Part shown: piece by piece, positions 19,359-58,955 of the stretch
Numbering within the stretch: the stretch's first letter is position 1
Layout: each line of letters begins with the position of its first letter
DNA from: a virus
IMG/VR virus record: IMGVR_UViG_3300018421_000015
Span: 22,300 to 86,299 of that record
DNA length: 64,000 bases
Reading direction: 5' to 3' (one strand)
Notes under the pieces: generated by a model
What the model saw: only the letters and a program-made list of their open reading frames with translations
Told to the model about the DNA's origin: nothing
The model's database searches: none
Position numbers and translations under genes: made by a program

Positions 19359-19675
19359 TAGAAGAAGAGTTTGATATTAGGTTAGTAGATTTTAGTGAAT
19401 TATCAAACGAAGATGCTTTAGAACTATTAGAAGCCTCTAAAATAATAGCTCTTAAAGATTTATACTCGGGCCTTTTACTGTGGGGCATAATTGAGGTACA
19501 TAAGATTGAGAATCTAGATGAGTTGCATCATTTTCTCTTTGACCCCGAAAGCTTAGCTGCCGTTGAATATTATAATTCCTTTAAAGAATTAGGATACGAT
19601 AAAGCCTACTACAATATGAGGGATAGTTACGATAAGCTTACCTTTATTGAATCAGTAGTTAAAGAATTATCTTGA
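19355..19675 (+). CDS. hypothetical protein
   Basis: ATGA overlap. Confidence 0.65.
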   Translation: MIEEEFDIRLVDFSELSNEDALELLEASKIIALKDLYSGLLLWGIIEVHKIENLDELHHFLFDPESLAAVEYYNSFKELGYDKAYYNMRDSYDKLTFIESVVKELS

Positions 19676-20500
19676 CCACCTATTTGCTATCCATTCCAAC
19701 ATTCTAGAGAGCCAATTTCCTTTTCCATCTTTTTTTTCAAGAAGTTCATCTTTATCTCGCTGCTCTTTTTTGTATCTAGATTTTTGATTAATTGGAATAA
19801 ACGTAGATTTAAAACCACGCTGAGAAAGAAGATCGTATATACTACCGTCACCCCAAATGTAATTAATCCCTTTTTGCCTAGGAATAGGTACCACATGCTG
19901 CATAATTTCACCTATTTCTATAGTAAATTCTTTATCAGTCAATATGTTCAAAACTATATTTGCATGATGGTAATAATCGGTATTTACTAATGCTGGCAAA
20001 AGTGTATAGTTTGGATTAGGTTCCCAAAGTGGAGGAAGGAAAATGGAAGACCACCCTGGTGCCGTTTTAAATAGCCAGGGATTTATTATTTTAATATAAT
20101 TTGCTCTCTCAAGTTTTCTTACCCTAGTCACTGGGCATTCTCCACTTTGATGAAAACCAAAACCTTCAACATGAAATTCGTGATTACCAGCAATGTCAAA
20201 TCTACTTTCCCAAAATGAACCATCTGGAGATGGTCTGAAATGCAGTCTTGCCCACATCGGTATATTGAAACCAAGAGATATATAATCAGCTGTCCCAGAA
20301 CATCTTCTCAATGCACCATCTCCAGAATCTAAATCTTTCCACCAATCTGGCCAATTTCTCCAGTTATCAATTGGCATTACTTCAGGGTCATAGAGCATTT
20401 GTGTATTCGGAGTAATTAAAACCTCACCTGGTTTTACTTTTGGTATATTATAAAAAGAATTAGCTGTCTCTATTTTTAGTTCTCTCAATGGCTTCTCCAT
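19667..20500 (-). CDS. DUF6065-like protein
   Basis: RC...GF.IP, PWLFKTAPGWS, LPALVNTDYY. Parallels the motifs of 48458..49183. Confidence 0.65.
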   Translation of the reverse strand: MEKPLRELKIETANSFYNIPKVKPGEVLITPNTQMLYDPEVMPIDNWRNWPDWWKDLDSGDGALRRCSGTADYISLGFNIPMWARLHFRPSPDGSFWESRFDIAGNHEFHVEGFGFHQSGECPVTRVRKLERANYIKIINPWLFKTAPGWSSIFLPPLWEPNPNYTLLPALVNTDYYHHANIVLNILTDKEFTIEIGEIMQHVVPIPRQKGINYIWGDGSIYDLLSQRGFKSTFIPINQKSRYKKEQRDKDELLEKKDGKGNWLSRMLEWIANRWSR

Positions 20501-21968
20501 GATCTATCATCTTTAAATTAATTAGATTAGAATTTGTCTCGCTTAGATGTTGAGTTGCTATTCTTCTGGATAGGTGTGCATTCAGCGAAACCGTTGCGGA
20601 TTCACTATTTAGAACTCCTTGACCCTGGGCAACGTGCCAGAAATGAGGTATAAAGAAGAGCTCAAATCCATTAGCAGTTATATCATGATCTTCGGGAGGT
20701 CGTTCTGACCATATTTCCAAAAGCTTCTGTAGCATTAGAGGCTTAGGTCTATTTTGTTGATCTAACCACATCTTAGTGTCATTTCTGTCAGAAATATAAT
20801 GTAAACAAATCATACTCAAAGCATTTTCCATAACTTCATTCATTATCTTATTATATTCTCTTATGGAGAATTCTGTCTTTTCGTTAAAGTTTGCTATATA
20901 TGAGCATAGTAATCTGGCCTGCTGTATCCCTATTGATATGGTTGTAGCCTCTAAAGGTTCGATGAAGCTATACGATAGGCCTATTGATACACAGTTTTTT
21001 TGCCAAGGTTCGCTATAATAGCCGGGTCTGAACTTAATGAATCTAGGATTTTCTATTTCAATACCATGAAACTCTTCAGCCTCAATAATCGCCTCCTCTT
21101 CAGTTATATAAGAGGAAGAGAAAACATATCCATTACCTTTTCTTTCTTGAGTTGGTATTTCCCACATCCACCCAGCATTCATGCTGATAGCTCTTGTGTA
21201 TGGGTGAATCTTTCCAAATATGTCTTTATCAGTTTGAAAAACTAGAGCTGTATCACAAGGTAAGTATTCGCTAAATGAATTAAACTCCACATTCTGCATT
21301 TTACTGGACAGCACTCTTGCAAATCCTGTTGCATCTATAAAAAAATCTCCAGATATTTTACTATCGAAACCATTAACTTTTATATATTTTATATGACCAT
21401 TTGAACCCTTATTTACAGATTCAATTTCACCTTCAACAAATCTTATGCCCATGTTATTGGCAAAGTTCTTAAGATATTTGTTGAGAAGAAATGTATCAAA
21501 ATGATATTGATTTGTTCCAAGATGAGTTTTATCTGGCTCTGTATCATCTTCACTAATCCCATCTATAACCTGATCCTCAATCATGCCTTTCCAGGAAAGT
21601 GAATTTGTTAAAAGGATTTCATTTTCTAGCAAAAAGCTATAGGTTGCATAGAAGGAGTTTCGTTTAATTCCTGTACCAGAAACAGAATGGATATACTTTG
21701 GCGTATGATTATTCCATCCCTCAAACATGATTCCATATTTGTGGGTGACGCCTGCAAATTTAATCATATCATCTACATTTATTCCAACAAAATCCTGAAA
21801 CCATCTCCAATGTTCCGTAGACCCCTCTCCTACGCCTATAATAGGGCTTTTTTCGGAAAAGCATACGGTTATGTCATATAAGGGGAATGTTTTTTTTAGA
21901 ATTATTGCAGTTGTCAATCCCGATGTACCAGCTCCGGCGATGACGATATGTTTTTGATCTATCTTCAT
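20460..21968 (-). CDS. Flavin-dependent (tryptophan halogenase family) halogenase
   Basis: GAGTSG, IGVGEGS, catalytic-type Lys in THKYGI, FFIDATGF, GWMWEIP (WxWxIP), FIEPLEAT. Confidence 0.92.
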   Translation of the reverse strand: MKIDQKHIVIAGAGTSGLTTAIILKKTFPLYDITVCFSEKSPIIGVGEGSTEHWRWFQDFVGINVDDMIKFAGVTHKYGIMFEGWNNHTPKYIHSVSGTGIKRNSFYATYSFLLENEILLTNSLSWKGMIEDQVIDGISEDDTEPDKTHLGTNQYHFDTFLLNKYLKNFANNMGIRFVEGEIESVNKGSNGHIKYIKVNGFDSKISGDFFIDATGFARVLSSKMQNVEFNSFSEYLPCDTALVFQTDKDIFGKIHPYTRAISMNAGWMWEIPTQERKGNGYVFSSSYITEEEAIIEAEEFHGIEIENPRFIKFRPGYYSEPWQKNCVSIGLSYSFIEPLEATTISIGIQQARLLCSYIANFNEKTEFSIREYNKIMNEVMENALSMICLHYISDRNDTKMWLDQQNRPKPLMLQKLLEIWSERPPEDHDITANGFELFFIPHFWHVAQGQGVLNSESATVSLNAHLSRRIATQHLSETNSNLINLKMIDHGEAIERTKNRDS

Positions 21969-21969: not shown

Positions 21970-22563
21970 TCATTTAAACCAGGTAACTAAAGAGTACTTC
22001 ACCGTTTCATCATCTGCACCAGCTGGTTTGGCTATATGCAAATACGGGAAATTGGATGGGAATAAGACACAGGATCCAGCTTGCGGCTTTATCTCAACAT
22101 CGAAATGAGGAAATACTAATTCGCCACCAGAGAAATCATCATTAAGAAAACAAACTAAGCTTAAAACTCTTTCATTATTTGGACCATGATCTTGATGAGC
22201 CCTATACTCTGCCCCTTTTCCATATCTTAATACTCTATAATTTTCGTCACCACTTAACTCCAATTCAAAGTCATCCCTATAGTCCCAGACGGTTTTATCT
22301 ATAGATTGGAAAATATCTATCCAAGTTGAATGCAATTCACTAATCCTCGAAGAGTGACCATCATAATTTGATAAAGGGGACAATTCACACGACATAGATG
22401 TTCGAACATCTGATATGTATCCATCACCCACTTGAGCTCTAACCCAATTAAGAAAAGACCACTCCTGAGAACACTCGCTTTCTAGTAGGTCTATAAATTT
22501 TTTACCAGAATCAAAAACATTAGTATATAACCTAATGCAAGTTCCTAAATCTTCTTTTTTCAT
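21970..22563 (-). CDS. 2OG-Fe(II) oxygenase, prolyl-4-hydroxylase-like
   Basis: HQD...LNDDFSGGELVF...H...KYSLVTW. Confidence 0.9.
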   Translation of the reverse strand: MKKEDLGTCIRLYTNVFDSGKKFIDLLESECSQEWSFLNWVRAQVGDGYISDVRTSMSCELSPLSNYDGHSSRISELHSTWIDIFQSIDKTVWDYRDDFELELSGDENYRVLRYGKGAEYRAHQDHGPNNERVLSLVCFLNDDFSGGELVFPHFDVEIKPQAGSCVLFPSNFPYLHIAKPAGADDETVKYSLVTWFK

Positions 22564-22564
22564 A

Positions 22565-23188
22565 TTAATACAAGCTTTCTCTATATTCTTGTTCTTTCTT
22601 CCTTATCACGGAGTGATGTGCCTGGCCTATCGTTTTACTCCAATGGTTACCGGGTACAAAGTGATAAAATATAACACTAACTTCATTAGTCTTGGGATTT
22701 GGAAAATCTGGTCTCCAATGATATTGATCTTCACCATAGTATATTATAGCATCATTAGGGTCAACCGTAAACTCCTTACCTTCAACAAAAAGGGGCCAGG
22801 CATCCTTGTGGTCGATAGAAACATCTATCGTATACGTACATGCGTTGTCATCTACATGCTCGAACAGTCTAGCCTTATAACCTCTGTAGGTAGAAAATAT
22901 AGCATAGGACGCCTCAATGGTATCGTCCAAAAAAAGTTCTTTAGCCAAAGGAACTAATTTTTCAAGCGACTCTCTGAGCATGCAATCAGGGCCGCTATTC
23001 TGGGTATGATAGGTTAGTCTACCGAAACCTTCGTCATAAATAAATAGGGGTCTATTATTATTCCTTAAGTTAAGTAAATAATCCTTTAGAGAATTAAAAT
23101 ATGATACATCAAATACCCCCTCATAGACGAAAGCATCAGGTCTTAGTGTTAGGTTTCTGCCTGTTCTTTTATCAAAATAAGTTTCCAA
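22565..23188 (-). CDS. 2OG-Fe(II) oxygenase-like
   Basis: HVD...HWR...IFYHF. Confidence 0.75.
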   Translation of the reverse strand: METYFDKRTGRNLTLRPDAFVYEGVFDVSYFNSLKDYLLNLRNNNRPLFIYDEGFGRLTYHTQNSGPDCMLRESLEKLVPLAKELFLDDTIEASYAIFSTYRGYKARLFEHVDDNACTYTIDVSIDHKDAWPLFVEGKEFTVDPNDAIIYYGEDQYHWRPDFPNPKTNEVSVIFYHFVPGNHWSKTIGQAHHSVIRKKEQEYRESLY

Positions 23189-23194
23189 AATATA

Positions 23195-23899
23195 TCACTT
23201 AGACTCCTTCTTAGCCTTTTCTTCTGGTGCATCATCTTTAACCTCTGGATCTTCTTGAATTGAACACAGGTAAAATGTGCTAATCATCCATTTATCACCG
23301 GATATTGGAGGATTTCCCTGGTGTGGATGTGTCCAATGCGCAGGAAAAATAGCTATGCTACCAGCTCGTGGCTTTACGCTTTGTTCGTATATTGGAAAAT
23401 ATGTCTCGCCCCCAACCTCTACATCGTTAAGGTATACTATTCCAGCTAAAACTCTTTTGCCTACAGAACCGGACAGAGGGTTAGGCGATGACCACGGAGT
23501 GCCATCAACATGCTGTCGATAATGCCCCCAATTAGTTCCATAATGTTGAAGCCTAAAACCAGTATCAGTAATTCCTGGCCAATGCCACAATTCATTATAT
23601 GTTTTTTGATAATAAGCGATACAGCCAAAAAGGGCTTGATTTATTGTCGACTCGGCGTTAGCAAAGATCATGGAATTTATCCCGAGTTCCTGAAGTGCAT
23701 ATGAACTAAAATTAAAATCCATACTAGATTTAACGAATGGATTAATCCCACCAATTGTCGGTCCAGGAGAAAACAAATCCTTGTAATACTTATTGCATTC
23801 CCCAATAAGCTCTGAACATAAATCTGGATCTATTGCGTTTTTTGCCTCTAGAATATAACTTTGCTTTCCACCAAGAAAGTTTAACTCTACATTTTTCAT
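23195..23899 (-). CDS. 2OG-Fe(II) oxygenase, P4H-like
   Basis: HVD...YLNDVEVGGETYF...HPHQG...GDKW. Confidence 0.9.
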   Translation of the reverse strand: MKNVELNFLGGKQSYILEAKNAIDPDLCSELIGECNKYYKDLFSPGPTIGGINPFVKSSMDFNFSSYALQELGINSMIFANAESTINQALFGCIAYYQKTYNELWHWPGITDTGFRLQHYGTNWGHYRQHVDGTPWSSPNPLSGSVGKRVLAGIVYLNDVEVGGETYFPIYEQSVKPRAGSIAIFPAHWTHPHQGNPPISGDKWMISTFYLCSIQEDPEVKDDAPEEKAKKESK

Positions 23900-23939: not shown

Positions 23940-24200
23940 CTACGAAGGCGTCGCTGCATTGAGTGAGTTTTCAGCTAAGAGCAGTGTTTCATATAACGAA
24001 ATTTGAATCATGAGCATCTCTTGGTTACTATTCTTATTCGAATCTTCATAATCAACTTCAACGTATTCTGAAGGAACAAAAGATTCAGGATTTATACCTA
24101 TTCTAAGGCAGCAGGTATACATCTGTTCTAGTACAAAAGTTTTCTGAGAGTCAACCAAATTCTGTCTAACTTCTAATGAAAGATCTGAAAATATGGACAT
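23940..24200 (-). CDS. small acidic hypothetical protein
   Basis: AGGAG RBS. TTACTATATA upstream. Confidence 0.75.
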   Translation of the reverse strand: MSIFSDLSLEVRQNLVDSQKTFVLEQMYTCCLRIGINPESFVPSEYVEVDYEDSNKNSNQEMLMIQISLYETLLLAENSLNAATPS

Positions 24201-24241
24201 TATTTCTCCTTAATAAGATATTTATATAGTAAAGCAAAAAG

Positions 24242-27200
24242 TTAAGCGTCTAATATTTTAGAGAAATTAGAATGCCCTATCTGATTCTGAACATTTCCGG
24301 AATCTCTAGAAACTATTAAAACACCACCCTGGTATCCTGGATCATACGTTGAAGGATCTGCGGTACCTCCAGCTCCTCCAGCTCCTCCAGCTCCACCAGT
24401 TCCGCCTAAGTATTCAAGGTTATCATAGGATTCATTATGGCCAGCATTATAGGGGTTTCCATGGTGAGGACCAGACGGAAGTGCCCCACCAGTAGCATGA
24501 TGTACATTATAGGATGGATGGTGATGGTATCCAGCTGTAAAAGTGGTTGGATTCTGAGATCCACCTGTTGACTGAACAAACCTCCTACCTATAAGCGGAA
24601 CACCAGGTACTAAAGCATGTGCCGCGAAGTTTACTCCATCATTCGTACCGACAAAGTGATAAATACCAGCTGCACCTACATGTGAACCCGGAGTATGACC
24701 TCTTAAATGCCTCGTCCCAGTATGGTTCTCGTCATTAAAGTCAGTAGTGTAAAGATACCTAACTGTTGGAGTTGTCGGATCATTTAATGGCGATATAGGT
24801 CCCGCAGTATGATCATGATTCCCTTCAGGCCAACTGCCAGAATGGTAATCGCCAGTGTGCCCATTGGCAGTTCCAGTATGAGTAACGGGAGTGTGGCCAG
24901 CAATATTTGCTGCCGTAGGAGCACCATGAATATTTAGCCCATTTATATCTCCATGAGGGTAATACCCTGCGTTGTGTAGATATTCCTTGTTTCCACTATG
25001 TCCAGAATAGTTAGTAGGAAGATTAGAATTTTGCCCATGATTCACATCGGGATTATGCCCTGGTGTATGGTGTACCCACTCTCCAGAATTCCACCCTTCA
25101 TTATAATGTGCGCTATGATTGTGGGTAGACCTCGGATAAAATGGTGCACTAGAGGGATGGCCATTGTAATTATTGTGATTATGATTATAGTCATGGTTAC
25201 CTGCGTTATGGCTATAGGTATTAGTGTGTTGATGAGGATTATTTGCCGGTAAGTTTGGTGAATTATAGTGACCAGAAGTATGGGGGTGAGTATGATTAGG
25301 ATTGTGTCCTGGATTATGATTTATGTGATCACCAGCATTAAATGATAAAAAGGTATAAGCATTACCATTGTACACCTGATTAGCTGGAACACCAAGCGCC
25401 GGATTAGCATGGGGAGCAGAGTTATGGTTGCTGTTACCCGAAACAGCAGGGCCATTTCCCGACCCAGGGTTTACTCTATGCCAGTAAGTCTGAATGCCAG
25501 TTAGTGGTCCAGTATAATGATTTTGATGGCTTCCACTATGGTTATGATTATTTGTGGGCCATATCGGAGAATTGCTAGGAAGGATCTGCAAGTGATGTGG
25601 TTTAGTGGAGTAATAAGTGGTATGGCTTCTGCTGTGTGTATTGTGAGATCCATAATTATGTGAATTATAGCCGGAGCTGTGCCAGGGTGTCACGTTACCT
25701 GTATGACCTACAGGATTATCATTTGTTGAATTATATGTACCATGGCCAAGACTGATAGCAGGTGAGGGTATAGATGGGCCAACGTTTGCATGATTACCTG
25801 CGTTGTGGGGGTGCTCGCTCTTTGTATGAAACTCGGTACCCGCTATATGATAATGGCCTGCAGGATGGGTGGCATTTGATGGATTGCCCGGCAAAGTACC
25901 GGCACTGTGGGGATGATTACCAGGATGATAACCATGCCCGTGCTGATTATGTACGGTAGCAGTGTGGCCATTATGCCCGGTGGGAAGATTAACTGATGGC
26001 GTATGATGCTGGTTTGCAGGAAAAACAGGTGCATGAGCGTCATCGAAAGTGGTATGCGAGGGCCACGATCCATCTCCTGCATGAGGATGTGTAAGCTGCT
26101 GATGAAAAGGTGTACCTGGGATTGTTCCAGGAGTATGGTGATGATACATGTTTCCCGCATTACTTGGAGCGGCAACAGTTGAGGGAAGATGTATGTTGGC
26201 ATTGGTGCCAGTTGAATTATGCGCGTGAGATATCTCACTACCCAAAAAAGGATATGAAGAATTAACACCAGCCGGATGATCATGATACCCCGGATTATGA
26301 CCCTGTGGGTCATAAATAGCGTTATGGTTTGAAACATTTGGTCTTTGATTTGCTGGTAGTCCACTAAAAGCTGGATAGTTTGTTGGGGCTATACTTACTG
26401 CCGGATGAGGATGTTCACCCTCATTTATTCCCTGGTTAAAAAAAGTTGCATCAGTGGGAAATGGATTAGCGTTCCTTATATCATATAAGTCTGAAATGTC
26501 ATATAAATTACCATGGTTATGAGTAGAGGGATTAAAAGTACCACCAGAAGTAGTAGCGTTATGACTTAACTTGCCCCCTGTTGCTGCAAAAATTGATCCG
26601 GTTCCTGATCCATGAGGGTGATTTCCTGCCGATACATGATGGTAACCCTGATTTACGCCAGAATCGTAAGGGCTACCTAAGTTAGCAAATGAGTCTATGT
26701 TTGGTGCAGGGTTGCCTGGGTTGCCATCTACGCCATCCAATCCCTGGGAAGGGCTACTCTCTGAAGTGGAAGATGTTCCTCTTGATTCAATTATTCCAGA
26801 ACCATCTATAGTTTTAGCTACTATAAGAACAACTCCACCACCAGAACCCCTTTGCCCACCACTACCTCTTGCAGCAGCGTTTCCATCTTGACCTGGGTTG
26901 CCTGGGTTGCCAGGGCCACCAGGAGATCCTGGTGGTAGTGATATAAATGCACCAGGGTTACCCGGCTGTCCAGGTTGACCTTCACCGGGATCTTCTAGGT
27001 CACCAACTTGTTGATCACCAGGTTGGCCACCAGAAACGGCGTGTATATTTCCATCAGCGGAGACTAGAAAACCATTAACAGCTACATCTAGGTCTTTAAC
27101 AATATTTTCAGATAAAGCTTCATTAGCAGATCCTTCACCCCAAGCATAACTCTTAACTACATCAGATCTCCTAGAAACAGTAGAAGCATTGGCTGTTTCT

Positions 27201-27466: not shown

Positions 27467-27467
27467 A

Positions 27468-28247: not shown

Positions 28248-28603
28248 CTTTCCTCTATTCCATTAATAATTAAATTCACAGAGGCACCGGCGTCGCAAAC
28301 TGCTACTATTTGATCAGAATTAGAAGCGCCCGCTGTTGAACCATTATTATTAAGGACTAGAGAAGTAGAAAGTGATAAAGTTTCATCTGCAGATATTGAT
28401 ATATCGCTGAAAAATATATGAGAACTGGATAATGTCTCTCCAGCTGGCTTACAATACAATTTAACAGTTCTTGTACTCGCAGAATAATTACAAAGTATTA
28501 TTTCTTTTATTATAGTCACAGTATTCTGTGGAACCGTGTAATAATCTGCATTTGACGCAGTTAATGTAGAAGGTCCAACAAGACGCTTTTGAATGAGGGG
28601 CAT
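28244..28603 (-). CDS. small beta-rich putative virion protein
   Basis: YTVP..T.TIIKEIILCN...SVNLIINGIE. Confidence 0.7.
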   Translation of the reverse strand: MPLIQKRLVGPSTLTASNADYYTVPQNTVTIIKEIILCNYSASTRTVKLYCKPAGETLSSSHIFFSDISISADETLSLSTSLVLNNNGSTAGASNSDQIVAVCDAGASVNLIINGIEES

Positions 28604-50639: not shown

Positions 50640-51259
50640 AGAAGCTCCGTGATGGTATAAAAAGAGGGTGTAGTCCATCTTTCACCCTGAATCACAGGCT
50701 TAACACCATGCAGGTAGTGAATATCACCTGGATGAGCAACAGCTAGACCCGGTTTTATCTTTAGCTCAATGTCAAACTCTGGGTAATAGAATTCTCCACC
50801 CTCAAAGTCTTCATTCCAGTATATTATGGAATTAATATCATAAGTAGGAAATGGATTTGGTGATCCATCATTCAACTGTTTATCAGCATGAGGTTGCTGC
50901 TCGTTACCCGGTAACCATCTAATTAAAACTGGCGGTCTCTGATATAACTTCACTTTAAATTTATCTTCAAGCGCTCTTTGCATCTTGACAATATATGAAT
51001 CGATGAGATTATATATATCAGGATTTAATTCACCTATTATTCTTCCAGAACACATTCTGTCCCACCAATACGATGCGTCGTAGGTGCAAGTACCATCTTC
51101 GTTGAACTCATCTTCCATAGGATTCTCCCACTTATCTATAGTTGGAAAGAAGTCCTGAAGGATTTTGAGATCAGACGGCTCCACGAAGTCTTCAATAATA
51201 AGTATATTATCTAAAGAGTCACCAAAATGACCAGGCTGAATTAAAGATTTTTCTTCCAT
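50636..51259 (-). CDS. 2OG-Fe(II) oxygenase, P4H-like
   Basis: HAD...DFEGGEFYYP...YLHGV.PV..GER. ATG at 51259. Confidence 0.92.
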   Translation of the reverse strand: MEEKSLIQPGHFGDSLDNILIIEDFVEPSDLKILQDFFPTIDKWENPMEDEFNEDGTCTYDASYWWDRMCSGRIIGELNPDIYNLIDSYIVKMQRALEDKFKVKLYQRPPVLIRWLPGNEQQPHADKQLNDGSPNPFPTYDINSIIYWNEDFEGGEFYYPEFDIELKIKPGLAVAHPGDIHYLHGVKPVIQGERWTTPSFYTITELL

Positions 51260-51265
51260 AAAAAC

Positions 51266-51276
51266 AGTATACCACA
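51266..51276 (-). promoter_or_regulatory. extended -10 promoter, leaderless
   Basis: TGTGGTATACT lies 6 nt upstream of ATG 51259 and there is no SD. Confidence 0.6.
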
Positions 51277-51308
51277 ACCTACCCCGGACTATCAATCCGG
51301 GGTAGGTT
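51276..51308 (-). terminator. intrinsic terminator-like hairpin after the FN3/PPFF gene
   Basis: Perfect 13-bp stem AACCTACCCCGGA/TCCGGGGTAGGTT with a 7-nt loop. Confidence 0.75.
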
Positions 51309-53521: not shown

Positions 53522-56500
53522 CTATGCCGACAAGTCGCCGGTAACTATCCAGGTATCTGAACCCCTCTTAATCAACGTGGCCATAGAATACTGATCTCTT
53601 AACTTCAAGCCTGGCGTTGCATGAGCAGAAACTCCAGAACCAGCAGCTATAGTAGTTTGACCAGCATTGGTTTGAAGAACCATAATTTGCGTACCAATTG
53701 GGAAGTTTACACTCGACTCAGGTGGTATGGTTAAGGTATTGGTGCTCGTGTGGCTCATCTCAATCATCTTATCTTTATCAGATAATGCTAAAGTATATGA
53801 AGCTGTCTGCTGATTAAACTTAACTAGTGAAGAACTAAATTCTATTTCGTCAGTACCATTACCAACAACAATCTTGTCCTCGGTTGTATCCCAAGCAATC
53901 CTTCCATCTGTAGATGAAGTTGTTGTCGACAAAGTTAACTCTGGCGTATTTACTACGGGTGAAGTCAAAGTTTTATTAGTCAAAGTCTCAGTACCGGCGA
54001 CAGTCGCTGCAGTCCCTGAAGCTGGAAGTGTAATGCTAGATCCGGAGGCATCAGCCGTAAATGTTACATTCCCAGTGTTAAGGGTAATTGTTCTACCCGC
54101 ATTGTTCACACCTGTGCCGCCATAAGCAGAGTCTATTACAGTTGCGTTCCATGTGCCGGATGTAAGAGTTCCTACTCCGGTAATCTGAGTTTGACTTGCA
54201 TTAACTGAAAATTCTGTACCAGTTAAAGTTAATCCAGTTCCAGCAGTGAATGCTCCTGCACCAGAGAACTGAATAAACGTAACATCACTTGATCCAACAC
54301 TTGTTACTGGCTCAGACAAAACCCATCCAGTATCAGCGTAAGAAGACCCATGGGTAACAAATATAAAGTCACCACCAGCCATTTCCGTAGGTGTATCGAA
54401 ATCATCTGCACGCGTCAAAACTGTTGTTGAAGTAACAACGTAAACACCATTGTGTGCAGATGTAGACTCACCTGCAATAAGAACTCTATCATCAGTTGTG
54501 AGATCAGTATCTCCGTCAATGTCACCACCAGATAAATCAAGAGCGGTTGAAAGCGTTAATGTTGCACCAACTCCATCAGTTCCATTGTCATAAGTTACCG
54601 TATCTCCAGTAATAGTGGCCAAAGATGTTGTTGTTATCGCATGAACCTGCTCGTGAACGTGTAAACCTTCCGAGACAGCATCAACGTAGCCCTTGGTTGC
54701 GGCATCCGTTGACTGCGTTGGAGTAGACAGATTAGTAATCTTGTTGCTATTGGCATCTATATCTCCACCGGCTTGAATGGTACTACTAAACACTGCTGCA
54801 CCAGTTACATCCAAAGTCCCAGTTACGGTAAGATTATCATCAACAGTGGTCTCTCCGCTAGCAGAATCAAGTGTTAGACCATCAGAAGATGTATCAATTT
54901 CGTTGTCTCCAGTGACCCCGACCTGAATATTACCAAGTGTTCCACCAGCAAACGTAGGACTGTCTCCAGTTGCCACAGACTGACCAATAGCAACTGTCGT
55001 TGCTGCACCTTCTCCGGTGCCAGAAGTAACTGTTACACCAGTACCAGCTGTAATTGATTCAATATAGTCTCCTGTAGTATCAGTACCCAGGGCAACGCTG
55101 TCTGCTGCAACTGTAGCCGTTAGTGTTACATCTGCTGAGCCATTTACTGATACAGAACCAGTTAAATCACCGGCCAATGTAATAGTTCTTGCTGTTGCCC
55201 AAGTTGATGCGGTGCTTGCATTTCCTGTAACATCCCCAGTTAAGTTAGCAGTAACGGTATTAAACGTAACATTTGAGGTGGTTTCAACTGCTTGACCTAT
55301 GGAAACTGTTGGGGTTTGACCCTCTCCAGTATCTACGGAAACTGCGATACCTGTTCCAGCTACCAGGTTCTGAACATAATCCCCTGTAGTATCGGTTCCC
55401 AAAGCAACACTGTTGGCAGATATTGTTGTGCTAATCGAAACATCTGCTGATCCATCTATTAAAACGTCGCCTGTGACATCACCTGTAAGCGCTATCTGCC
55501 TAGAAGTGGCCCAAGTTGATGCTGTGTCAGCGTTACCAGTGACATCACCCGTGACATCTCCAGTGACATCTCCAGTGACATTTCCAGTTACGTTGCCAGT
55601 AAGATTGCCAGTGACATTACCTGTTACATCACCCGTGACGTCACCAGTAACATTTCCGATAAGGTTACCGCTAACATCACCAGTAACATCACCAGTAACA
55701 TCTCCAGTTAGATTCCCCGTAACATTACCTGTAAGATTACCCGTGACATCTCCGGTGATGTCACCAGTGACGTTACCAGTAACATTACCGGTAATATCAC
55801 CAGTGACATCTCCGGTAAAAGTTTTGTTTAATGAGTCTACTATTTTTACTGGGGTAGCATCCTGAGAGTAAACATCTCCTGTTAGATCACCATCAACATT
55901 ACCGGTTAGGTTACCGGTCACATTACCGGTCACATTCCCAGTTAGGTCTCCGGTTACATCTCCAGTTAAGTCACCAGCGACATTACCGTTAACACTTCCC
56001 GTTACATCACCTGTAACATCTCCAGTTAAATTACCAGTAACATTACCGGTTAAATTACCCGTAACATCACCGGTTACATCACCGGTAACATCACCTGTAA
56101 CATTTCCAGTTACGTTTCCAGTTACATTGCCCGTAACGTTACCGGTCAAATCACCAGTAACACCACCAGTAAATGAAGCGTTTGTGCCATCTGTTCCGCT
56201 ATGTAATACTCGTGACGTTCCGTTAGATGCGTAAACATCTCCGATCACATTACCGGTCACATTACCAGTCACATTACCTGTCACATTACCAGTCACATTA
56301 CCAGTTAGGTCTCCGGTTACATCTCCAGTTAAATCACCAGTGACATTACCGGTAACGTTACCGTTCAAGTCACCAGTAACATCACCGGTAAATGAAGCGT
56401 CTGTACCATCTGTTCCGCTATCTAATATTTGTGATCCATTACTCGAATAAACATCTCCCGTTACATTACCGGTCACATTACCGGTTACATTACCTGCAAC

Positions 56501-57826
56501 GTCACCAGTTACATCACCTGTCAGATCACCAGTAAATGATGTCGAAGTTACGGAAGATAAACCCGTTAATGATGAATCTAAATTGATTGTATTATCAGAT
56601 TTCGATAGATTATCTCCAGCTGTTAATGTATTAGTTCCAGTAAACTGTGTATATGTAATACTATCTGTGCCTAGCACATGCACATTGTTTGTACCAGAAC
56701 CATAAGAAACTATAATAAAACCCTGATTACCATTTAATGTTCCAGCAGTAGCAAAAACGGCATCGCCGGTATTAATCGATTCAGGTGAGCCATCAGCATC
56801 TGTTGCCCTTGTCAATTCCCAGGTCGTAGTTGACGAACCCTGATCTGTTACTTCGTATATACCATTCTGTGACGCAGTTGACTGATTCTTAATCAGAACC
56901 CTATCACCCGTAGTAGCATTTGATCCATCTATAGATAACCTACCATTAGTAGTTGCAGAAAGTGTAGCACCTACGCCACTAGTACCGTTATCATATGAGG
57001 GGCTATTTGACAGGGCACCAGCTGAAGCATACCTGACGGCTTCGTGCCAGTGCACACCGGCTGCAATAGAGTCAGCATAGGCTTTGGTAGCTATTTCACC
57101 AGTGTTAACTGCTATAGTAGGGGTTGAGTTTTCTCCAGAATTATTAGTTAAACTAATACCGGTGCCTGCAACAAGTGAGGCTACATAATCACCAGTTGTA
57201 TTGGTTCCAAGCTCAATGCTATCAGCCTGAATTGTGGCAGTTATGTTTATATCTGTTGAGCCATTAAACGAAGCTGAACCTGCAACATCACCAGATATTT
57301 GAATAGTACGAGAGTTCGCAAGCGTAGTAGCAGTACCAGCATTCCCGCTTACATTACCAGTTACATCACCAGTAACATCACCAGTAAGATCACCAGTAAC
57401 GTTGCCGGTAACATTACCAGTAACATTGCCGGTTACGTTGCCACTTAAATCGCCAGTAATATCGGCGGTAACGGTATTAAAAGTAACATCTGAGGTTGTT
57501 TCAACAGCTTGACCAATTGCAACTGTAGGGGTGGCATTTTCGCCAGAATTGTCGGTAAGAGTTATGCCCGTACCGGCAACAAGTGACTGAACATAGCTTC
57601 CAACAGTGTCTGTTGCCAAATCTACTGGATCATTAATCCAATTAGATCCATTATGCCTAAGAAAGTCGCCACTTGCGACATCTTCAATTACAACATCACC
57701 GATACTATTAATACTATCAGCTATAGTTACTTCTCTTATCCACGCGGTTCCATTCCATATCCAAGATGCTCCATCTACAGAATATGTGTCATTGACCGAA
57801 GGATTGTCAGGAAAATTTAAAGCCAT
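53522..57826 (-). CDS. Long tail fibre-like protein with G(N/D)(V/L)T tetrapeptide arrays
   Basis: Extensive GNVT/GDVT/GDLT runs, four T.T.G.Y..SL.AGTG modules, a duplicated DRVL...NG.Y.V...LTRA.D domain and a C-terminal YTL..D...QYS.ATLIKR..DTW domain. Confidence 0.85.
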   Translation of the reverse strand: MALNFPDNPSVNDTYSVDGASWIWNGTAWIREVTIADSINSIGDVVIEDVASGDFLRHNGSNWINDPVDLATDTVGSYVQSLVAGTGITLTDNSGENATPTVAIGQAVETTSDVTFNTVTADITGDLSGNVTGNVTGNVTGNVTGDLTGDVTGDVTGNVSGNAGTATTLANSRTIQISGDVAGSASFNGSTDINITATIQADSIELGTNTTGDYVASLVAGTGISLTNNSGENSTPTIAVNTGEIATKAYADSIAAGVHWHEAVRYASAGALSNSPSYDNGTSGVGATLSATTNGRLSIDGSNATTGDRVLIKNQSTASQNGIYEVTDQGSSTTTWELTRATDADGSPESINTGDAVFATAGTLNGNQGFIIVSYGSGTNNVHVLGTDSITYTQFTGTNTLTAGDNLSKSDNTINLDSSLTGLSSVTSTSFTGDLTGDVTGDVAGNVTGNVTGNVTGDVYSSNGSQILDSGTDGTDASFTGDVTGDLNGNVTGNVTGDLTGDVTGDLTGNVTGNVTGNVTGNVTGNVIGDVYASNGTSRVLHSGTDGTNASFTGGVTGDLTGNVTGNVTGNVTGNVTGDVTGDVTGDVTGNLTGNVTGNLTGDVTGDVTGSVNGNVAGDLTGDVTGDLTGNVTGNVTGNLTGNVDGDLTGDVYSQDATPVKIVDSLNKTFTGDVTGDITGNVTGNVTGDITGDVTGNLTGNVTGNLTGDVTGDVTGDVSGNLIGNVTGDVTGDVTGNVTGNLTGNVTGNVTGDVTGDVTGDVTGNADTASTWATSRQIALTGDVTGDVLIDGSADVSISTTISANSVALGTDTTGDYVQNLVAGTGIAVSVDTGEGQTPTVSIGQAVETTSNVTFNTVTANLTGDVTGNASTASTWATARTITLAGDLTGSVSVNGSADVTLTATVAADSVALGTDTTGDYIESITAGTGVTVTSGTGEGAATTVAIGQSVATGDSPTFAGGTLGNIQVGVTGDNEIDTSSDGLTLDSASGETTVDDNLTVTGTLDVTGAAVFSSTIQAGGDIDANSNKITNLSTPTQSTDAATKGYVDAVSEGLHVHEQVHAITTTSLATITGDTVTYDNGTDGVGATLTLSTALDLSGGDIDGDTDLTTDDRVLIAGESTSAHNGVYVVTSTTVLTRADDFDTPTEMAGGDFIFVTHGSSYADTGWVLSEPVTSVGSSDVTFIQFSGAGAFTAGTGLTLTGTEFSVNASQTQITGVGTLTSGTWNATVIDSAYGGTGVNNAGRTITLNTGNVTFTADASGSSITLPASGTAATVAGTETLTNKTLTSPVVNTPELTLSTTTSSTDGRIAWDTTEDKIVVGNGTDEIEFSSSLVKFNQQTASYTLALSDKDKMIEMSHTSTNTLTIPPESSVNFPIGTQIMVLQTNAGQTTIAAGSGVSAHATPGLKLRDQYSMATLIKRGSDTWIVTGDLSA

Positions 57827-57914
57827 GGTTACCTCATAGAATAGCTATACTTGGTCTCTACTAAATAGTAACAAGATTGTGCTATAACACAATAGATAAG
57901 TTTGGGCAATATAC

Positions 57915-58955
57915 TTACTGTAGAGAGTCTGACATCATGTTCAAATTATTAGAAAATCTTTCATTATCTGGCTCTAATAAAAGAGCCGCTTTACAGTACT
58001 TTATCGCTAATTCATGCATTCCGAGATTCCAAGATGCTATTGTTGCCATATCATATGGGTGTGAACCCCAAGCTTCCGCCTCACATAGATATTCTAAAGG
58101 TTTCTCTTTAATAACTAAAGCACTCTCTACGGCAGACAGGCACTCTATCCACCTAGAATTTACATAATAATATCCAGCTAACTCAATCCAAGGCTCTCTC
58201 CTGTCGGGAGACTCTGCACACGCTTTTAATAGCCAGGGATATCTTTCCCCGCTTACTCTAGACAAATACCTCATTGCGGTAGCTCTTTCGGGCTTCCATT
58301 TAGATATTTCTAAGTACTTTAGAAATTGCTCTTCAGCCTGATTATTCAATCCGGCGAACATATATTCTCTGCCTAAGTAAAATCTATTTCTGTCATCACT
58401 TGGATCTTCCCTAATTGACAATTCTAACAGTGGGAGATACTGAGATCTTGACTTAGTGGAATCTGGATAGTGGTGAATCTCTAAATCTATCCAACCCTGA
58501 TTTTCTTCTATGGAAGGCTTTAAAACTTCGTGAACAGGATGCTTCCATCTGTACCCATTCCTGGAATGAATTTTGTCACCAGAATACACAAGACCTTCTG
58601 ATGAATCCTCGTTCCAAGACCAAACATATTTATACCTGGGACGAGTAACTAATGGGTCAACACGCTCTAAATGGTCGCGCCAACCTTTTGTTAAAATTTC
58701 GTCTGCATCTAAAGCTATACAGTAATCGTAATCAGAAGGAATCAAAGACAATGCTACGTTCCTGGCATCATCAAACCGCCAAGGCATCACTGATGCTGAG
58801 TGTACGGTACATCCTGCCAGTAGAGCTTTCTCTACTGTTCCATCAGACGAACCAGTATCTAGTATCAACCTGAGATCGGCTTCTGCACAAGATTCTGCCC
58901 AGCGTTCAATAAACTTCTCTTCATTTTTTGCAATTGTATAGACAGCTATTTTCAT
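57915..58955 (-). CDS. GT2 glycosyltransferase with TPR domain
   Basis: IAKNEE, LDTGSSDGT, FDDARN, LDADE, VHE, followed by TPR-like helices. Confidence 0.9.
   Translation of the reverse strand: MKIAVYTIAKNEEKFIERWAESCAEADLRLILDTGSSDGTVEKALLAGCTVHSASVMPWRFDDARNVALSLIPSDYDYCIALDADEILTKGWRDHLERVDPLVTRPRYKYVWSWNEDSSEGLVYSGDKIHSRNGYRWKHPVHEVLKPSIEENQGWIDLEIHHYPDSTKSRSQYLPLLELSIREDPSDDRNRFYLGREYMFAGLNNQAEEQFLKYLEISKWKPERATAMRYLSRVSGERYPWLLKACAESPDRREPWIELAGYYYVNSRWIECLSAVESALVIKEKPLEYLCEAEAWGSHPYDMATIASWNLGMHELAIKYCKAALLLEPDNERFSNNLNMMSDSLQ

What the first reader, a model, noticed from the sequence alone, without database searches (positions are those of the whole stretch)
19667..58955. A ~39-kb tailoring super-cluster interleaved with fibre genes: candidate virion-protein modification system
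Seen: 16 2OG-Fe(II) oxygenases (two of them TauD-type), a halogenase, a P450, a carbamoyltransferase, two glycosyltransferases, a sugar aminotransferase, two methyltransferase-like genes, two SGNH-like genes, two DUF6065-like genes and a GPx. No NRPS, PKS or other scaffold synthase is present. The only obvious substrates are adjacent structural proteins rich in Pro, His, Asn, Tyr and Thr. Inference: this is a RiPP-like or extensin-like pathway that hydroxylates, glycosylates, carbamoylates, halogenates and cross-links virion fibres. DNA hypermodification is the main alternative.
Basis: partly seen in the sequence, partly recalled or inferred. Interest (0 to 1): 0.9.

Follow-up and report, generated by a model that had tools for sequence, protein, structure and literature searches.

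The report
Phage fibre tails beside hydroxylase battery
A fragment of a large uncultured estuarine phage packs about 16 collagen-hydroxylase-like enzymes, a halogenase and sugar-tailoring enzymes among its fibre genes, next to a fibre protein ending in a pure proline-phenylalanine tail that is the likeliest, still untested, target.

Summary
The inventory is real. Pfam confirms 13 2OG-Fe(II) oxygenases above cut-off, and three more are supported by motif. It also confirms a flavin halogenase, a P450, a carbamoyltransferase, a GT60 glycosyltransferase, a DegT aminotransferase, a GPx-like gene and DUF6065. The SGNH, methyltransferase, second-GT and second-DUF6065 labels are weak.

The 39 kb is composite:
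- A core cassette is conserved in 51-69 of 69 IMG/VR relatives: a (PP[F/Y]F)n-tailed fibre-region protein, oxygenases, DUF6065 and GPx.
- An end module resembles the Syn9 array: a His-rich protein, oxygenases, halogenase and a gp43-like gene.
- Between them lies a plastic filler of sugar and lipid-type enzymes.

Tail and oxygenases travel together in both directions (57 of 89 loci and 28 of 30 loci). One large paralogue models as a protein prolyl hydroxylase. Complete relatives have no NRPS, PKS, TET/JBP or thymidylate-synthase-like genes.

The fibre-modification reading is therefore partly supported, at about 0.5, and only for the core. No chemistry has been shown. The P450 resembles lipid/sterol hydroxylases.

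Tandem dioxygenase, halogenase and dUTPase-fold arrays were described in cyanophage Syn9 in 2010 (PMC2938197). This scan has already reported the Pro-Phe tail link on other genomes.

The parts
19667..20500 (-). 277-aa protein, homologue of Syn9 gp43 (the dUTPase-fold, conserved-Cys protein of the Syn9 array). It is the last gene of the block.
   Evidence: BLASTP against Syn9 gp43, E 3e-5 over 156 aa. phrog_7084, E 3e-19. Only a 35-aa local match to DUF6065. Syntenic in G004 at 54% identity.
20460..21968 (-). Flavin-dependent (Trp-halogenase family) halogenase.
   Evidence: PF04820, E 1.3e-98. GxGxxG and WxWxIP motifs are visible. About 33-35% identical to cyanomyovirus and pelagiphage halogenases. 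A 59% orthologue occupies the same position in G004.
21970..23899 (-). Three genes: a 2OG oxygenase (21970-22563), a protein matching the PHROG labelled 'ferrochelatase' that has an HVD motif (22565-23188), and a 2OG oxygenase (23195-23899).
   Evidence: PF13640, E 1.6e-15 and 6.4e-11. phrog_2954. Motifs. Syntenic in G004.
23940..28603 (-). Candidate substrate or structural set of the end module: an 86-aa ORF, a 1074-aa His/Asn/Pro/Gly-rich protein (24242-27466), a 259-aa Gly/Ser-rich protein (27468-28247) and a 119-aa protein (28244-28603).
   Evidence: Sequences. No Pfam hit. The 119-aa protein hits phrog_20100. The same order occurs in G004 and L007, with a 1123-aa counterpart.
28716..30357 (+). 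Plus-strand insert: a 141-aa ORF and a cytochrome P450.
   Evidence: PF00067, E 3.2e-26. The nearest solved sequences are CYP125/CYP124, E 5e-65 to 5e-57.
30446..37329 (-). Plastic accessory filler: oxygenase (30446-31426), FkbM-like (31438-32025, weak), oxygenase (32022-32561), two unclassified paralogues called SGNH-like (32684-33601 and 35193-36305), carbamoyltransferase (33610-35064) and a GT60 glycosyltransferase (36292-37329).
   Evidence: Pfam. Paralogy. Presence in relatives is low and variable.
37332..38640 (-). 2OG-FeII_Oxy_5 oxygenase (37332-38021) and a cryptic 2OG oxygenase (37954-38640). Both belong to the conserved core.
   Evidence: PF13759, E 7.9e-8. Invariant H108, D110, H193 and R203 in 12 sequences. 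Present in 37 and 51 of 69 loci.
38637..41366 (-). A TauD-type oxygenase, a DegT/EryC1 sugar aminotransferase and a second TauD-type oxygenase.
   Evidence: PF02668, E 1.6e-14 and 2.7e-7. PF01041, E 3.1e-83. The TauD genes occur in 21-23 of 69 loci and DegT in 0 of 69.
41363..45032 (-). Four large paralogous P4H-like oxygenases (258, 293, 295 and 371 aa). This is the most conserved part of the cassette.
   Evidence: PF13640 in all four. Present in 68-69 of 69 loci. Invariant HxD...H...R. The AF2 model of the 371-aa member (pLDDT 75.4) matches protein prolyl hydroxylases.
45082..47543 (-). Conserved non-oxygenase genes: a 248-aa protein (O-methyltransferase look-alike, a lead only), three ORFs of 84-107 aa and a 307-aa protein of unknown function.
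   Evidence: No Pfam hit. Atlas features. Present in 6-51 of 69 loci.
47561..49183 (-). A GPx-like protein (47561-48181), a 97-aa ORF and a DUF6065 protein with a dUTPase-like fold (48458-49183).
   Evidence: PF00255 and PF19541. Present in 63 and 58 of 69 loci. AF2 model pLDDT 77.6. dUTPases are the top hits in Foldseek (E 1.7e-4) and VIA (Z up to 10.5). The canonical GPx Cys is replaced by Tyr.
49183..51295 (-). Three small P4H-like oxygenases directly downstream of the repeat-tailed gene.
   Evidence: PF13640. Alignment A4. The 50636 type is the commonest first neighbour of PP[F/Y]F tracts, in 35 of 57 loci.
51315..53471 (-). 718-aa FN3-rich fibre-region protein. Its last ~100 residues (DNA about 51315-51620) are a pure PP[F/Y]F repeat ending PPSFK. 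This is the candidate substrate.
   Evidence: Sequence. fn3. phrog_31, 'central tail fiber J', E 1.9e-17. The same tail occurs on unrelated N-terminal parts in relatives.
53522..63340 (-). Fibre genes upstream in the same orientation: a 1434-aa fibre, a GT2-like/TPR protein (57915-58955, weak) and three fibre proteins with collagen-like GPT repeats.
   Evidence: Tail-fibre PHROG hits. Pfam. Sequences.

Best explanation
The block is the fibre-proximal, probably late-expressed region of a fragment of a large aquatic myovirus. The record is 41% complete, and complete relatives are 170-210 kb. The lineage encodes WhiB, so the host is probably an actinobacterium.

The conserved core is a protein-modification cassette. 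A fibre-region protein ends in about 24 PP[F/Y]F units. It is followed at once by small prolyl-hydroxylase-like 2OG/Fe(II) oxygenases, a DUF6065 protein with a dUTPase fold, a GPx-like protein and four large P4H-like paralogues.

The inferred mechanism is that these enzymes hydroxylate prolines in the tail during virion assembly. They may also hydroxylate other residues, the collagen-like GPT repeats and the His/Asn/Pro-rich protein. Where a GT60 gene is present, the hydroxyl groups would then be O-glycosylated, and the sugars may be tailored further by DegT, the carbamoyltransferase and the other accessory genes.

The end module (His-rich protein, oxygenases, halogenase, gp43-like gene) is the counterpart of the Syn9 array and may treat a second fibre-associated protein.

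What is shown: the gene content, intact catalytic motifs, the P4H-like fold of one family, the position inside the structural region, and tail-oxygenase linkage in both directions. What is inferred: the substrate, the chemistry, and any role of the accessory enzymes.
For: - Oxygenases are confirmed with intact HxD...H...R/K motifs.
- The core is conserved in 51-69 of 69 relatives. Identity of the query oxygenase (43917-45032) in those loci is 54-90%.
- In the complete 210-kb relative, the cassette lies between tail-sheath/virion genes and fibre genes.
- A DNA-pattern scan that ignores enzymes gave 119 loci. Of these, 89 have at least 1.5 kb beyond the tract. An oxygenase homologue lies within 1.5 kb on the 3' side in 57 of those 89, and somewhere in the locus in 72 of 89.
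- In the reverse direction, 28 of 30 loci with a 50636 orthologue and at least 3 kb on both sides have a tract within 3 kb.
- Tracts that end the protein are followed by an oxygenase in 48 of 62 loci, against 9 of 25 for internal tracts (Fisher p = 4e-4; the loci are not independent).
- The tail sits on different N-terminal parts, with 0-791 residues before it, and 65 of 133 complete frames end in FK, 58 of them PPxFK.
- PF13640 hits in complete relatives cluster beside the tract.
- The 43917-family model's best PDB matches are protein prolyl, lysyl and HIF hydroxylases, including PBCV-1 vCPH and Dictyostelium PhyA (E 3.6e-8 to 1e-6, TM on target 0.5-0.6).
- A GT60 family gene is interleaved in 12 of 69 loci, twice between oxygenases.
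- No NRPS or PKS core domain, no TET/JBP over cut-off and no thymidylate-synthase-like gene was found in 4 records, 2 of them complete.
- Syn9 shows the same order: fibre genes, then halogenases, then a gp43-like gene, then dioxygenases.
Against: - No chemistry has been shown for any phage of this kind. My literature searches found no report of hydroxyproline in a phage virion.
- The relatives share ancestry, so conserved gene order alone does not prove an enzyme-substrate relation.
- Eight to sixteen oxygenases are many for one simple repeat.
- 17 of 89 tract loci have no oxygenase homologue in the DNA held.
- P-SSM2, HTVC008M and the Syn9 stretch I examined have oxygenase rows but no such tract. 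The tract therefore cannot be the general substrate of phage oxygenases.
- The P450 resembles lipid/sterol hydroxylases.
- TauD-type enzymes, DegT and the carbamoyltransferase usually act on small molecules or nucleotide sugars (general knowledge).
- DUF6065 has a nucleotide-enzyme fold.
- PF13640 also covers non-protein hydroxylases such as PiuC, which ranks among the top structural matches.
Confidence: 0.5

Rival explanations
1. Small-molecule tailoring. The array hydroxylates, halogenates and otherwise decorates a host-made metabolite or peptide natural product during infection. This is the reading of Iyer et al. 2010 for the Syn9 array.
For: - The gene set of many dioxygenases, a halogenase and a dUTPase-fold protein is the one that paper describes and reads as organohalogen or peptide-metabolite synthesis (PMC2938197, passages read).
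- The P450's nearest solved relatives are CYP125/CYP124 lipid/sterol hydroxylases.
- Two TauD-type enzymes are present.
- The viral halogenase VirX1 accepts many free aromatic compounds in vitro (PMC8407142, passages read).
Against: - No NRPS adenylation or ketosynthase domain was found in 4 records, including 2 complete relatives.
- The cassette sits inside the structural region.
- It is linked in both directions to a repeat-tailed fibre protein.
- The best structural matches are protein hydroxylases.
Confidence: 0.17
2. The oxygenases modify proteins, but not the repeat tail. Targets would be other phage or host proteins such as translation factors, ribosomal proteins or other virion proteins. 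The adjacency to the tail would then be inherited gene order.
For: - The top structural match is the bacterial P4H that hydroxylates EF-Tu (5v7y).
- Cyanophage and pelagiphage oxygenase rows exist without any PP[F/Y]F tract.
- All loci with the pairing share the same overall cassette, so they may represent one lineage.
Against: - The tail is kept next to the oxygenases although its N-terminal part is swapped and the first oxygenase is sometimes inverted.
- Terminal tracts are linked to an oxygenase more often than internal ones.
Confidence: 0.15
3. Auxiliary metabolism or host-envelope remodelling. The oxygenases would adjust 2OG, succinate or nitrogen status (Sullivan et al. 2010). The sugar enzymes would alter the host's surface glycans, for instance to block superinfection.
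For: - This is the standard reading in the cyanophage literature (PMC3037559 and PMC9602691, passages read).
- DegT, the carbamoyltransferase and the GTs are typical of cell-surface glycan pathways (general knowledge).
- The accessory genes vary between close relatives, as surface-related genes do.
Against: - Four ancient paralogues are each kept in 68-69 of 69 relatives with intact active sites, which argues for distinct specific substrates rather than bulk 2OG turnover.
- The cassette has the position and orientation of the fibre genes.
Confidence: 0.1
4. DNA or nucleotide hypermodification.
For: - DUF6065 has a dUTPase-like fold (Z 8.4-10.5 for 14 dUTPase-fold chains, 13 dUTPases and HCMV pp71).
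- GTs, an aminotransferase and a carbamoyltransferase occur in known base-modification pathways (general knowledge).
Against: - TET/JBP was over cut-off in 0 of 4 records and thymidylate-synthase-like genes were found in 0 of 4, including 2 complete genomes.
- The oxygenases are P4H-type, not TET or AlkB type.
- No dUTPase catalytic motif is evident among the invariant DUF6065 residues (the motifs themselves are recalled, not from a call).
Confidence: 0.05

Closest known systems
Tandem dioxygenase array of Synechococcus phage Syn9, gp41-gp54 (Iyer, Abhiman, de Souza, Aravind, NAR 2010, PMC2938197; passages read; Syn9 record read)
   Same: - Many tandem classical 2OG/Fe(II) dioxygenases from several families.
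- Trp-halogenase-type gene(s).
- A protein with a dUTPase fold and a conserved Cys. Window gene 19667-20500 matches gp43 at E 3e-5, and the DUF6065 model matches dUTPases with C37 invariant.
- The array lies directly downstream of fibre genes in the same orientation.
- A protein matching the PHROG labelled 'ferrochelatase' lies among the oxygenases.
   Different: - Here the phage is a WhiB-encoding lineage without psbA, not a T4-like cyanophage.
- A PP[F/Y]F-tailed protein heads the array, and none is present in the Syn9 stretch.
- Pfam found no JmjC/MINA-type member.
- There are added GPx-like, GT60, DegT, carbamoyltransferase, P450 and TauD genes.
- The paper read the Syn9 array as secondary-metabolite synthesis, not virion modification.
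Chlorovirus PBCV-1 prolyl 4-hydroxylase (vCPH, PDB 5c5t) and that virus's proline-rich repeats (Eriksson et al. 1999; seen only as a citation in PMC9301287; details recalled)
   Same: A virus-encoded P4H-type enzyme together with virus-encoded proline-rich repeat proteins. vCPH is among the best structural matches of the 43917-family model (E 9.2e-8).
   Different: PBCV-1 is a eukaryotic virus with a single enzyme. Its repeats are Pro-Ala-Pro-Lys-like (recalled). No gene linkage of this kind is known there, and there is no battery of paralogues.
Skp1 modification in Dictyostelium: prolyl hydroxylase PhyA, then the GT60 GlcNAc-transferase Gnt1 (recalled; PhyA structure 6t8m appears)
   Same: A P4H-type oxygenase and a GT60 family glycosyltransferase (PF11397, E 9.2e-27) occur in one gene set. 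The DAH motif is readable in the sequence.
   Different: The Dictyostelium target is one proline of a cytoplasmic protein. Here the candidate is a long repeat on a virion protein. GT60 is accessory, present in 12 of 69 relatives. The acceptor is unknown.
Virion glycosylation of mycobacteriophages by phage glycosyltransferases (Freeman et al. 2023; seen only in a reference list)
   Same: An actinophage-encoded enzyme set that decorates structural proteins, with the enzyme genes placed near the structural genes (recalled).
   Different: That system has no hydroxylases, halogenase or repeat tail. Its glycans go on capsid and tail-tube proteins (recalled).

Membership tests
Protein prolyl 4-hydroxylase type 2OG/Fe(II) oxygenase (PF13640) | Profile match above the curated cut-off | tested here: met
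   Ten genes match PF13640 above 27 bits, and 37332 matches PF13759. Gene 50636 is below cut-off at 22.9 bits.
Protein prolyl 4-hydroxylase type 2OG/Fe(II) oxygenase (PF13640) | His-x-Asp...His iron triad and a basic residue about 10 residues after the distal His | tested here: met
   Invariant in alignments A2, A3 and A4. The pattern is found in 15 of 16 candidates, and 22565 is ambiguous.
Protein prolyl 4-hydroxylase type 2OG/Fe(II) oxygenase (PF13640) | Fold closest to solved peptidyl-prolyl hydroxylases | tested here: met
   Tested only for the 43917 family. The top Foldseek matches are 5v7y, 2jig, 3itq, 7zsc, 5c5t and PHD2 at E 3.6e-8 to 1e-6. PiuC/PKHD proteins, whose substrate is unknown, rank equally.
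Protein prolyl 4-hydroxylase type 2OG/Fe(II) oxygenase (PF13640) | Hydroxylation of peptidyl proline | not testable with these tools
   This needs an enzyme assay or mass spectrometry.
Syn9-type tandem dioxygenase/halogenase array (Iyer et al. 2010) | Tandem dioxygenases from several families together with a Trp-halogenase-type gene | tested here: met
   Description in the paper.
Syn9-type tandem dioxygenase/halogenase array (Iyer et al. 2010) | A protein with a dUTPase fold and a conserved Cys | tested here: met
   DUF6065 model: 14 top chains of the dUTPase fold, 13 dUTPases and HCMV pp71, Z 8.4-10.5. C37 is invariant. Gene 19667-20500 matches Syn9 gp43 at E 3e-5.
Syn9-type tandem dioxygenase/halogenase array (Iyer et al. 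2010) | A JmjC/MINA-type member (Syn9 gp49) | tested here: inconclusive
   No JmjC or Cupin_4 hit at E up to 0.01 among the 40 proteins scanned. A divergent member among the unassigned genes is not excluded.
GT60 protein O-GlcNAc transferase (PF11397) | Profile match above cut-off and a DxH/DxD motif | tested here: met
   E 9.2e-27, 94.9 bits against a cut-off of 21. 'VDAH' is readable. No solved relative was found by sequence.
GT60 protein O-GlcNAc transferase (PF11397) | Transfer to hydroxyproline or Thr of a protein | not testable with these tools
   This needs biochemistry.
RiPP pathway | A short precursor with leader and core, a recognition element, and a leader protease or exporter | tested here: not met
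   The candidate substrate here is a 718-aa FN3 fibre-region protein. No protease, exporter or RRE family was hit. Some relatives do have tailed ORFs as short as 75-124 aa.
Phage DNA hypermodification system | A pyrimidine hydroxymethylase (thymidylate-synthase-like) or a TET/JBP oxygenase as entry step | tested here: not met
   PF00303 was found in 0 of 4 records, and PF12851 was over cut-off in 0 of 4, including 2 complete relatives.
Flavin-dependent halogenase | Profile match, GxGxxG and WxWxIP motifs | tested here: met
   PF04820, E 1.3e-98. GAGTSG and GWMWEIP are in the sequence. That these motifs define the family is taken from PMC8407142 (passages read) and from recall.
Glutathione peroxidase | Peroxidatic Cys or Sec at the canonical position | tested here: not met
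   The Pfam match is above cut-off. The position is Tyr here and Y/F/L/A/C across 12 orthologues, and a Cys five residues on is kept in 10 of 12. The canonical position is recalled.

The most novel reading that the evidence does not exclude
The cassette may be a phage-borne 'extracellular-matrix' factory. Each conserved oxygenase paralogue would hydroxylate a different position of the Pro/Phe/Tyr tail (Pro C3, Pro C4, aromatic or side-chain carbons). GT60 and the sugar enzymes would glycosylate the product. The halogenase would act on a second, His-rich fibre protein. The result would be a chemically hardened or adhesive fibre tip, comparable to extensins or mussel foot proteins, that sets host attachment. 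This would give the abundant orphan 2OG oxygenases of aquatic phages their first defined substrate class.
Probability: 0.15. Interest if true: 0.85.

Novelty: new variant of a known kind. Interest (0 to 1): 0.62.

Why it matters
2OG/Fe(II) oxygenase genes are among the commonest 'auxiliary' genes of aquatic phages, and no substrate is known for them. The literature I read assigns them to 2OG/nitrogen balance, DNA repair or metabolite synthesis, or calls their use cryptic.

This window and its relatives offer a concrete, testable candidate substrate encoded next door. If hydroxylation of the tail were shown, it would establish collagen- or extensin-like post-translational chemistry on bacteriophage virions. 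It would also explain the battery of paralogues and prompt a re-reading of the Syn9-type arrays.

If the tail is not modified, the cluster remains a large member of a kind already described in 2010.

Tried and rejected
- Megablast of 19667-44000 against GenBank phages gave only a 40-base chance match.
- tblastn of the 42149 oxygenase and of DUF6065 against cultured phages found nothing. The 50636 oxygenase and 19667 found only distant cyanophage and haloarchaeal virus matches, at most 32% identity over at least 40% of the query. No cultured member of this lineage was found.
- Profile searches of A1, A2 and A3 against PDB sequences gave only weak hits with E of 0.025 or more. The GT60 protein found no solved relative.
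- hhalign of 22565-23188 against the 37954 family showed no relation.
- The 259-aa Gly-rich protein showed no similarity to Syn9 gp38.
- Pfam at E up to 5 gave nothing usable for ten unassigned proteins.
- Complex prediction with the 50636 oxygenase and residues 596-718 of the tailed protein returned 'no answer' (score 0.00 in two runs, controls not run). This counts neither for nor against binding.
- Terminal 'FK' tails were not more often followed by an oxygenase than all other tract types (28 of 38 against 29 of 49, p = 0.18). Only the split between tract-ending and internal tracts was significant.
- The genome-contig scan gave 14 stretches. Six carry this phage cassette or its fibre genes in MAG contigs filed under four unrelated taxa (four with oxygenase or DUF6065 genes), and eight show no such genes and are mostly short junk frames. 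It therefore gave no host and no cellular counterpart.
- RNA libraries: four salt-marsh metatranscriptome runs hold near-identical contigs over parts of the oxygenase genes, the tailed gene and the 1434-aa fibre gene. DNA carry-over is not excluded, contigs cannot rank expression, and parts without cover mean nothing. I do not count this as evidence of transcription.
- Literature searches that found nothing relevant: hydroxyproline + bacteriophage + virion + prolyl hydroxylase; actinophage + whiB + freshwater + oxygenase; DUF6065; PPFF + phage (unrelated papers only); phage + proline-rich + tail fiber + prolyl hydroxylase.
- The Arch Virol 2025 lineage paper (PMC12619734) holds none of the terms oxygenase, WhiB or halogenase.
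- Weigele et al. 2007 on Syn9 is not held. I could not check whether any Syn9 array protein was found in virions.
- Supplementary files were not opened. The supplementary data of Iyer et al. 2010 and the tables of the S-SCSM1 paper may bear on the family assignments.

Full report
WHAT IS THERE

The window is bases 22300-86299 of a single 86,299-base virus record, which CheckV rates 41% complete. It has no tRNA genes. From 19667 to 63340 nearly every gene lies on the minus strand with short gaps. The exception is a plus-strand pair at 28716-30357.

- a flavin halogenase (E 1.3e-98)
- a P450
- a two-domain carbamoyltransferase
- a GT60 'GlcNAc' glycosyltransferase (E 9.2e-27)
- a DegT aminotransferase (E 3.1e-83)
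- a GPx-family protein
- a DUF6065 protein
- 13 2OG/Fe(II) oxygenases above Pfam's cut-off, 11 of the P4H type (Oxy_3/Oxy_5) and two of the TauD type

Gene 50636-51295 scores 22.9 bits, but H136-x-D138, H196 and R206 are invariant in 15 orthologues. Gene 37954-38640 has no Pfam hit, but H108, D110, H193 and R203 are invariant in 12 sequences. Gene 22565-23188 has only an HVD motif and a match to a PHROG labelled 'ferrochelatase'.

Several labels are weak. These are the second glycosyltransferase, the two 'methyltransferase-like' genes, the two 'SGNH-like' genes and the second 'DUF6065-like' gene. The two SGNH-like genes are true paralogues (E 7e-35) but match no family.

The structural neighbours are as described:
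- a 718-aa FN3 protein that hits tail-fibre PHROGs and ends in about 100 residues of pure PP[F/Y]F
- a 1074-aa protein rich in His, Asn, Pro and Gly
- four fibre genes at 53522-63340, three of them with collagen-like GPT repeats

WHAT KIND OF PHAGE

A search of IMG/VR with the 371-aa oxygenase gave 69 related loci, in which the query oxygenase is 54-90% identical. Three lie on contigs of 210, 171 and 170 kb. Two of these are rated complete, and one has terminal repeats.

In the 210-kb genome the cassette is flanked by tail-sheath and virion-protein genes on one side and fibre genes on the other. All four records examined encode WhiB above cut-off, and none encodes a photosystem reaction-centre protein. 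The lineage is therefore a large myovirus, probably of actinobacteria.

Public runs that hold the stretch are salt-marsh, estuary and marine metagenomes. Seventeen runs hold at least half of the sampled words.

THE 39 KB IS COMPOSITE

tblastn of 46 window proteins against the 69 loci, each limited to about 10 kb either side of the anchor, separates a core from accessories.

Core genes (coverage at least 50%), as loci out of 69:
- the four large oxygenases: 68-69
- GPx-like: 63
- DUF6065: 58
- the three small oxygenases: 53-64
- the cryptic oxygenase 37954: 51
- the 248-aa protein: 51
- the Oxy_5 oxygenase: 37

Accessory genes, as loci out of 69:
- halogenase: 0
- DegT: 0
- carbamoyltransferase: 2
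- P450: 3
- FkbM-like: 4
- GT60: 12
- the His-rich protein: 2

Close relatives fill the space between core and end module differently.

The end module is nevertheless a unit. In a 45-kb relative the order is 119 aa, 258 aa, a 1123-aa His/Gly-rich protein, 87 aa, oxygenase, a 22565-like gene, oxygenase, halogenase (59% identity) and a 19667-like gene. That order is identical to the window's.

THE REPEAT TAIL AND THE OXYGENASES TRAVEL TOGETHER

Among the 69 loci, 29 ORFs carry a PP[F/Y]F tract.

A scan of IMG/VR for DNA encoding four such units ignores enzymes altogether. Of these, 89 have at least 1.5 kb beyond the 3' end of the tract. In 57 of the 89, a homologue of one of this window's oxygenases lies within 1.5 kb on that side. 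In 72 of the 89, one lies somewhere in the locus. The nearest neighbour is 50636-like in 35 loci and 21970-like in 15.

In the reverse direction, 52 of the 69 oxygenase-anchored loci have a 50636 orthologue. Thirty of those have at least 3 kb on both sides, and 28 of the 30 carry a tract within 3 kb.

Across all loci there are 133 distinct complete tract-bearing frames. The open frame before the tract ranges from 0 to 791 residues, the tract has 4-26 units, and 65 frames end in FK, 58 of them PPxFK. In others the tract is followed by Cys-rich, FN3 or Hint-like domains.

Tracts that end the protein are followed by an oxygenase in 48 of 62 loci. Internal tracts are followed by one in 9 of 25 (Fisher p = 4e-4). 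The loci are related, so this is not a clean probability.

In the three large relatives the PF13640 hits cluster beside the tract. The broader set keeps one architecture: fibre, tailed protein, three to nine oxygenases, DUF6065, small proteins, the 248-aa protein, the cryptic oxygenase, and the four large oxygenases. This may therefore be one widespread cassette rather than many independent unions, which limits the weight of the counts.

WHAT THE ENZYMES LOOK LIKE

The AlphaFold model of the 371-aa oxygenase was built from 16 sequences and has a mean pLDDT of 75.4. Its best PDB matches are almost only protein hydroxylases: bacterial EF-Tu P4H, algal and Bacillus P4H, human collagen P4H-II, PBCV-1 vCPH, PHD2, P3H1, LH3 and Dictyostelium PhyA. 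The uncharacterised PKHD/PiuC type ranks among them (E 3.6e-8 to 1e-6, TM on target about 0.5-0.6).

The DUF6065 model (pLDDT 77.6) matches dUTPases first in Foldseek (E 1.7e-4). It also matches them in the search that does not use Foldseek: 14 chains of the dUTPase fold (13 dUTPases and HCMV pp71) at Z 8.4-10.5, then dCTP deaminases at Z 6-7.

The P450's nearest solved sequences are CYP125/CYP124 lipid and sterol hydroxylases of actinobacteria (E 5e-65). That fits an actinobacterial gene pool but argues against a peptide cross-linking role.

The GPx-like protein lacks the canonical Cys, which is Tyr here and varies among orthologues.

ALTERNATIVES TESTED

No adenylation or ketosynthase domain occurs in the four records.

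No TET/JBP hit reaches cut-off and no thymidylate-synthase-like gene is present. This removes the usual entry steps of oxygenase-linked DNA hypermodification, although the dUTPase-like fold of DUF6065 keeps a small doubt alive.

The genome-contig scan found the cassette only on contigs binned into MAGs of four unrelated taxa, which is most simply mis-binned phage DNA.

COMPARISON WITH WHAT IS KNOWN

Iyer et al. [quoted passage not shown] They proposed secondary-metabolite synthesis.

The Syn9 record shows that this array follows the fibre and fibre-assembly genes directly. Window gene 19667-20500 is a homologue of Syn9 gp43 (E 3e-5). The window is therefore a variant of that known kind.

It differs in four ways: the lineage, the scale, the conserved repeat-tailed protein at the head of the array (absent from the Syn9 stretch, P-SSM2 and HTVC008M), and the added GPx, GT60, sugar and P450 genes.

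Cyanophage papers assign such oxygenases to 2OG/nitrogen balance or DNA repair, or state that their functions have not been investigated (PMC3037559, PMC9602691; passages read). A Baltic virome paper calls viral P4H use 'cryptic' (PMC9301287).

My searches found no report of hydroxyproline in phage virions and no report of the repeat. This does not prove absence from the literature, because subscription journals are mostly not held.

The viral halogenase VirX1 is a trimer with a large open active site and no known natural substrate (PMC8407142; passages read).

EARLIER NOTES OF THIS SCAN

A look-up by words showed that follow-up agents have already reported Pro-Phe fibre tails beside hydroxylase batteries on at least seven other genomes, with the same cautious reading and the same pointer to the Syn9 paper. 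I took the pointer from there and checked the paper and the Syn9 record myself. My linkage counts were made before that look-up.

This window adds two things to those notes: the Syn9-type end module with a His-rich protein, and the plastic block of sugar and lipid-type enzymes.

VERDICT

The core cassette most likely modifies the phage's own fibre-region proteins, with the PP[F/Y]F tail as prime candidate (about 0.5). That the halogenase, P450, carbamoyltransferase, DegT and TauD enzymes act on virion proteins is unsupported and in part unlikely.

I rate the finding as a new variant of a known kind. It is of good but not exceptional interest, because it turns an old open question into a direct experiment.

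Noticed in passing
window 47561-48181; alignment A5: The GPx-family protein has Tyr where the peroxidatic Cys is expected (position recalled). Orthologues have Y/F/L/A/C there, and a Cys five residues downstream is kept in 10 of 12. A second, more canonical paralogue exists in the 210-kb relative.
   Followed up: partly
L121, L103, L138, L153 (IMG/VR loci): In some phages the PP[F/Y]F tract is followed by what looks like a Hint/intein-type autoprocessing domain (a 'C-I/L-x-x-D-T' start). That could release the tract as a free C-terminus. In others a Cys-rich domain or FN3 domains follow. The Hint assignment is by eye only.
   Followed up: no
L207, L210, L212, L213, L215, L219 (GTDB contigs): Contigs carrying this phage cassette or its fibre genes are binned into MAGs labelled Verrucomicrobiales, Gammaproteobacteria, Acidibacter and Cyclobacteriaceae. 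They are probably mis-binned viral DNA.
   Followed up: partly
L220 (Syn9 NC_008296, 36-43 kb): RefSeq labels genes of the Syn9 dioxygenase array 'minor coat protein', 'DNA endonuclease V' and 'ferrochelatase'. Iyer et al. class these genes as dioxygenases, so the names look like propagated misnomers. Window proteins 22565 and 37954 hit the PHROGs that carry the same names.
   Followed up: partly
L003 6415-7662: A close relative (query oxygenase 90% identical) has a different P450, 31% identical to the window's, inserted between the 248-aa gene and the first large oxygenase. P450 genes have therefore entered the cassette at least twice.
   Followed up: no
G000:C1:18649-18849 (outside the window, upstream): A WhiB-family gene is present, and all three large relatives have one too. 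This hints at an actinobacterial host.
   Followed up: partly
window 739-10484: Other first-stage notes describe a ubiquitin-like conjugation operon here. I saw only that 3536-5131 is an AAA-type ATPase with phage relatives.
   Followed up: no
window 51308-51733 and 51323-51622: Two long ORFs in other frames over the repeat DNA (Ser/His/Arg-rich and Gly/Arg/Met-rich) are most simply by-products of the repeat, not genes.
   Followed up: no
window 39500-59400: Four salt-marsh metatranscriptome libraries hold near-identical contigs over parts of the oxygenase genes, the tailed gene and the 1434-aa fibre gene. DNA carry-over is not excluded.
   Followed up: partly
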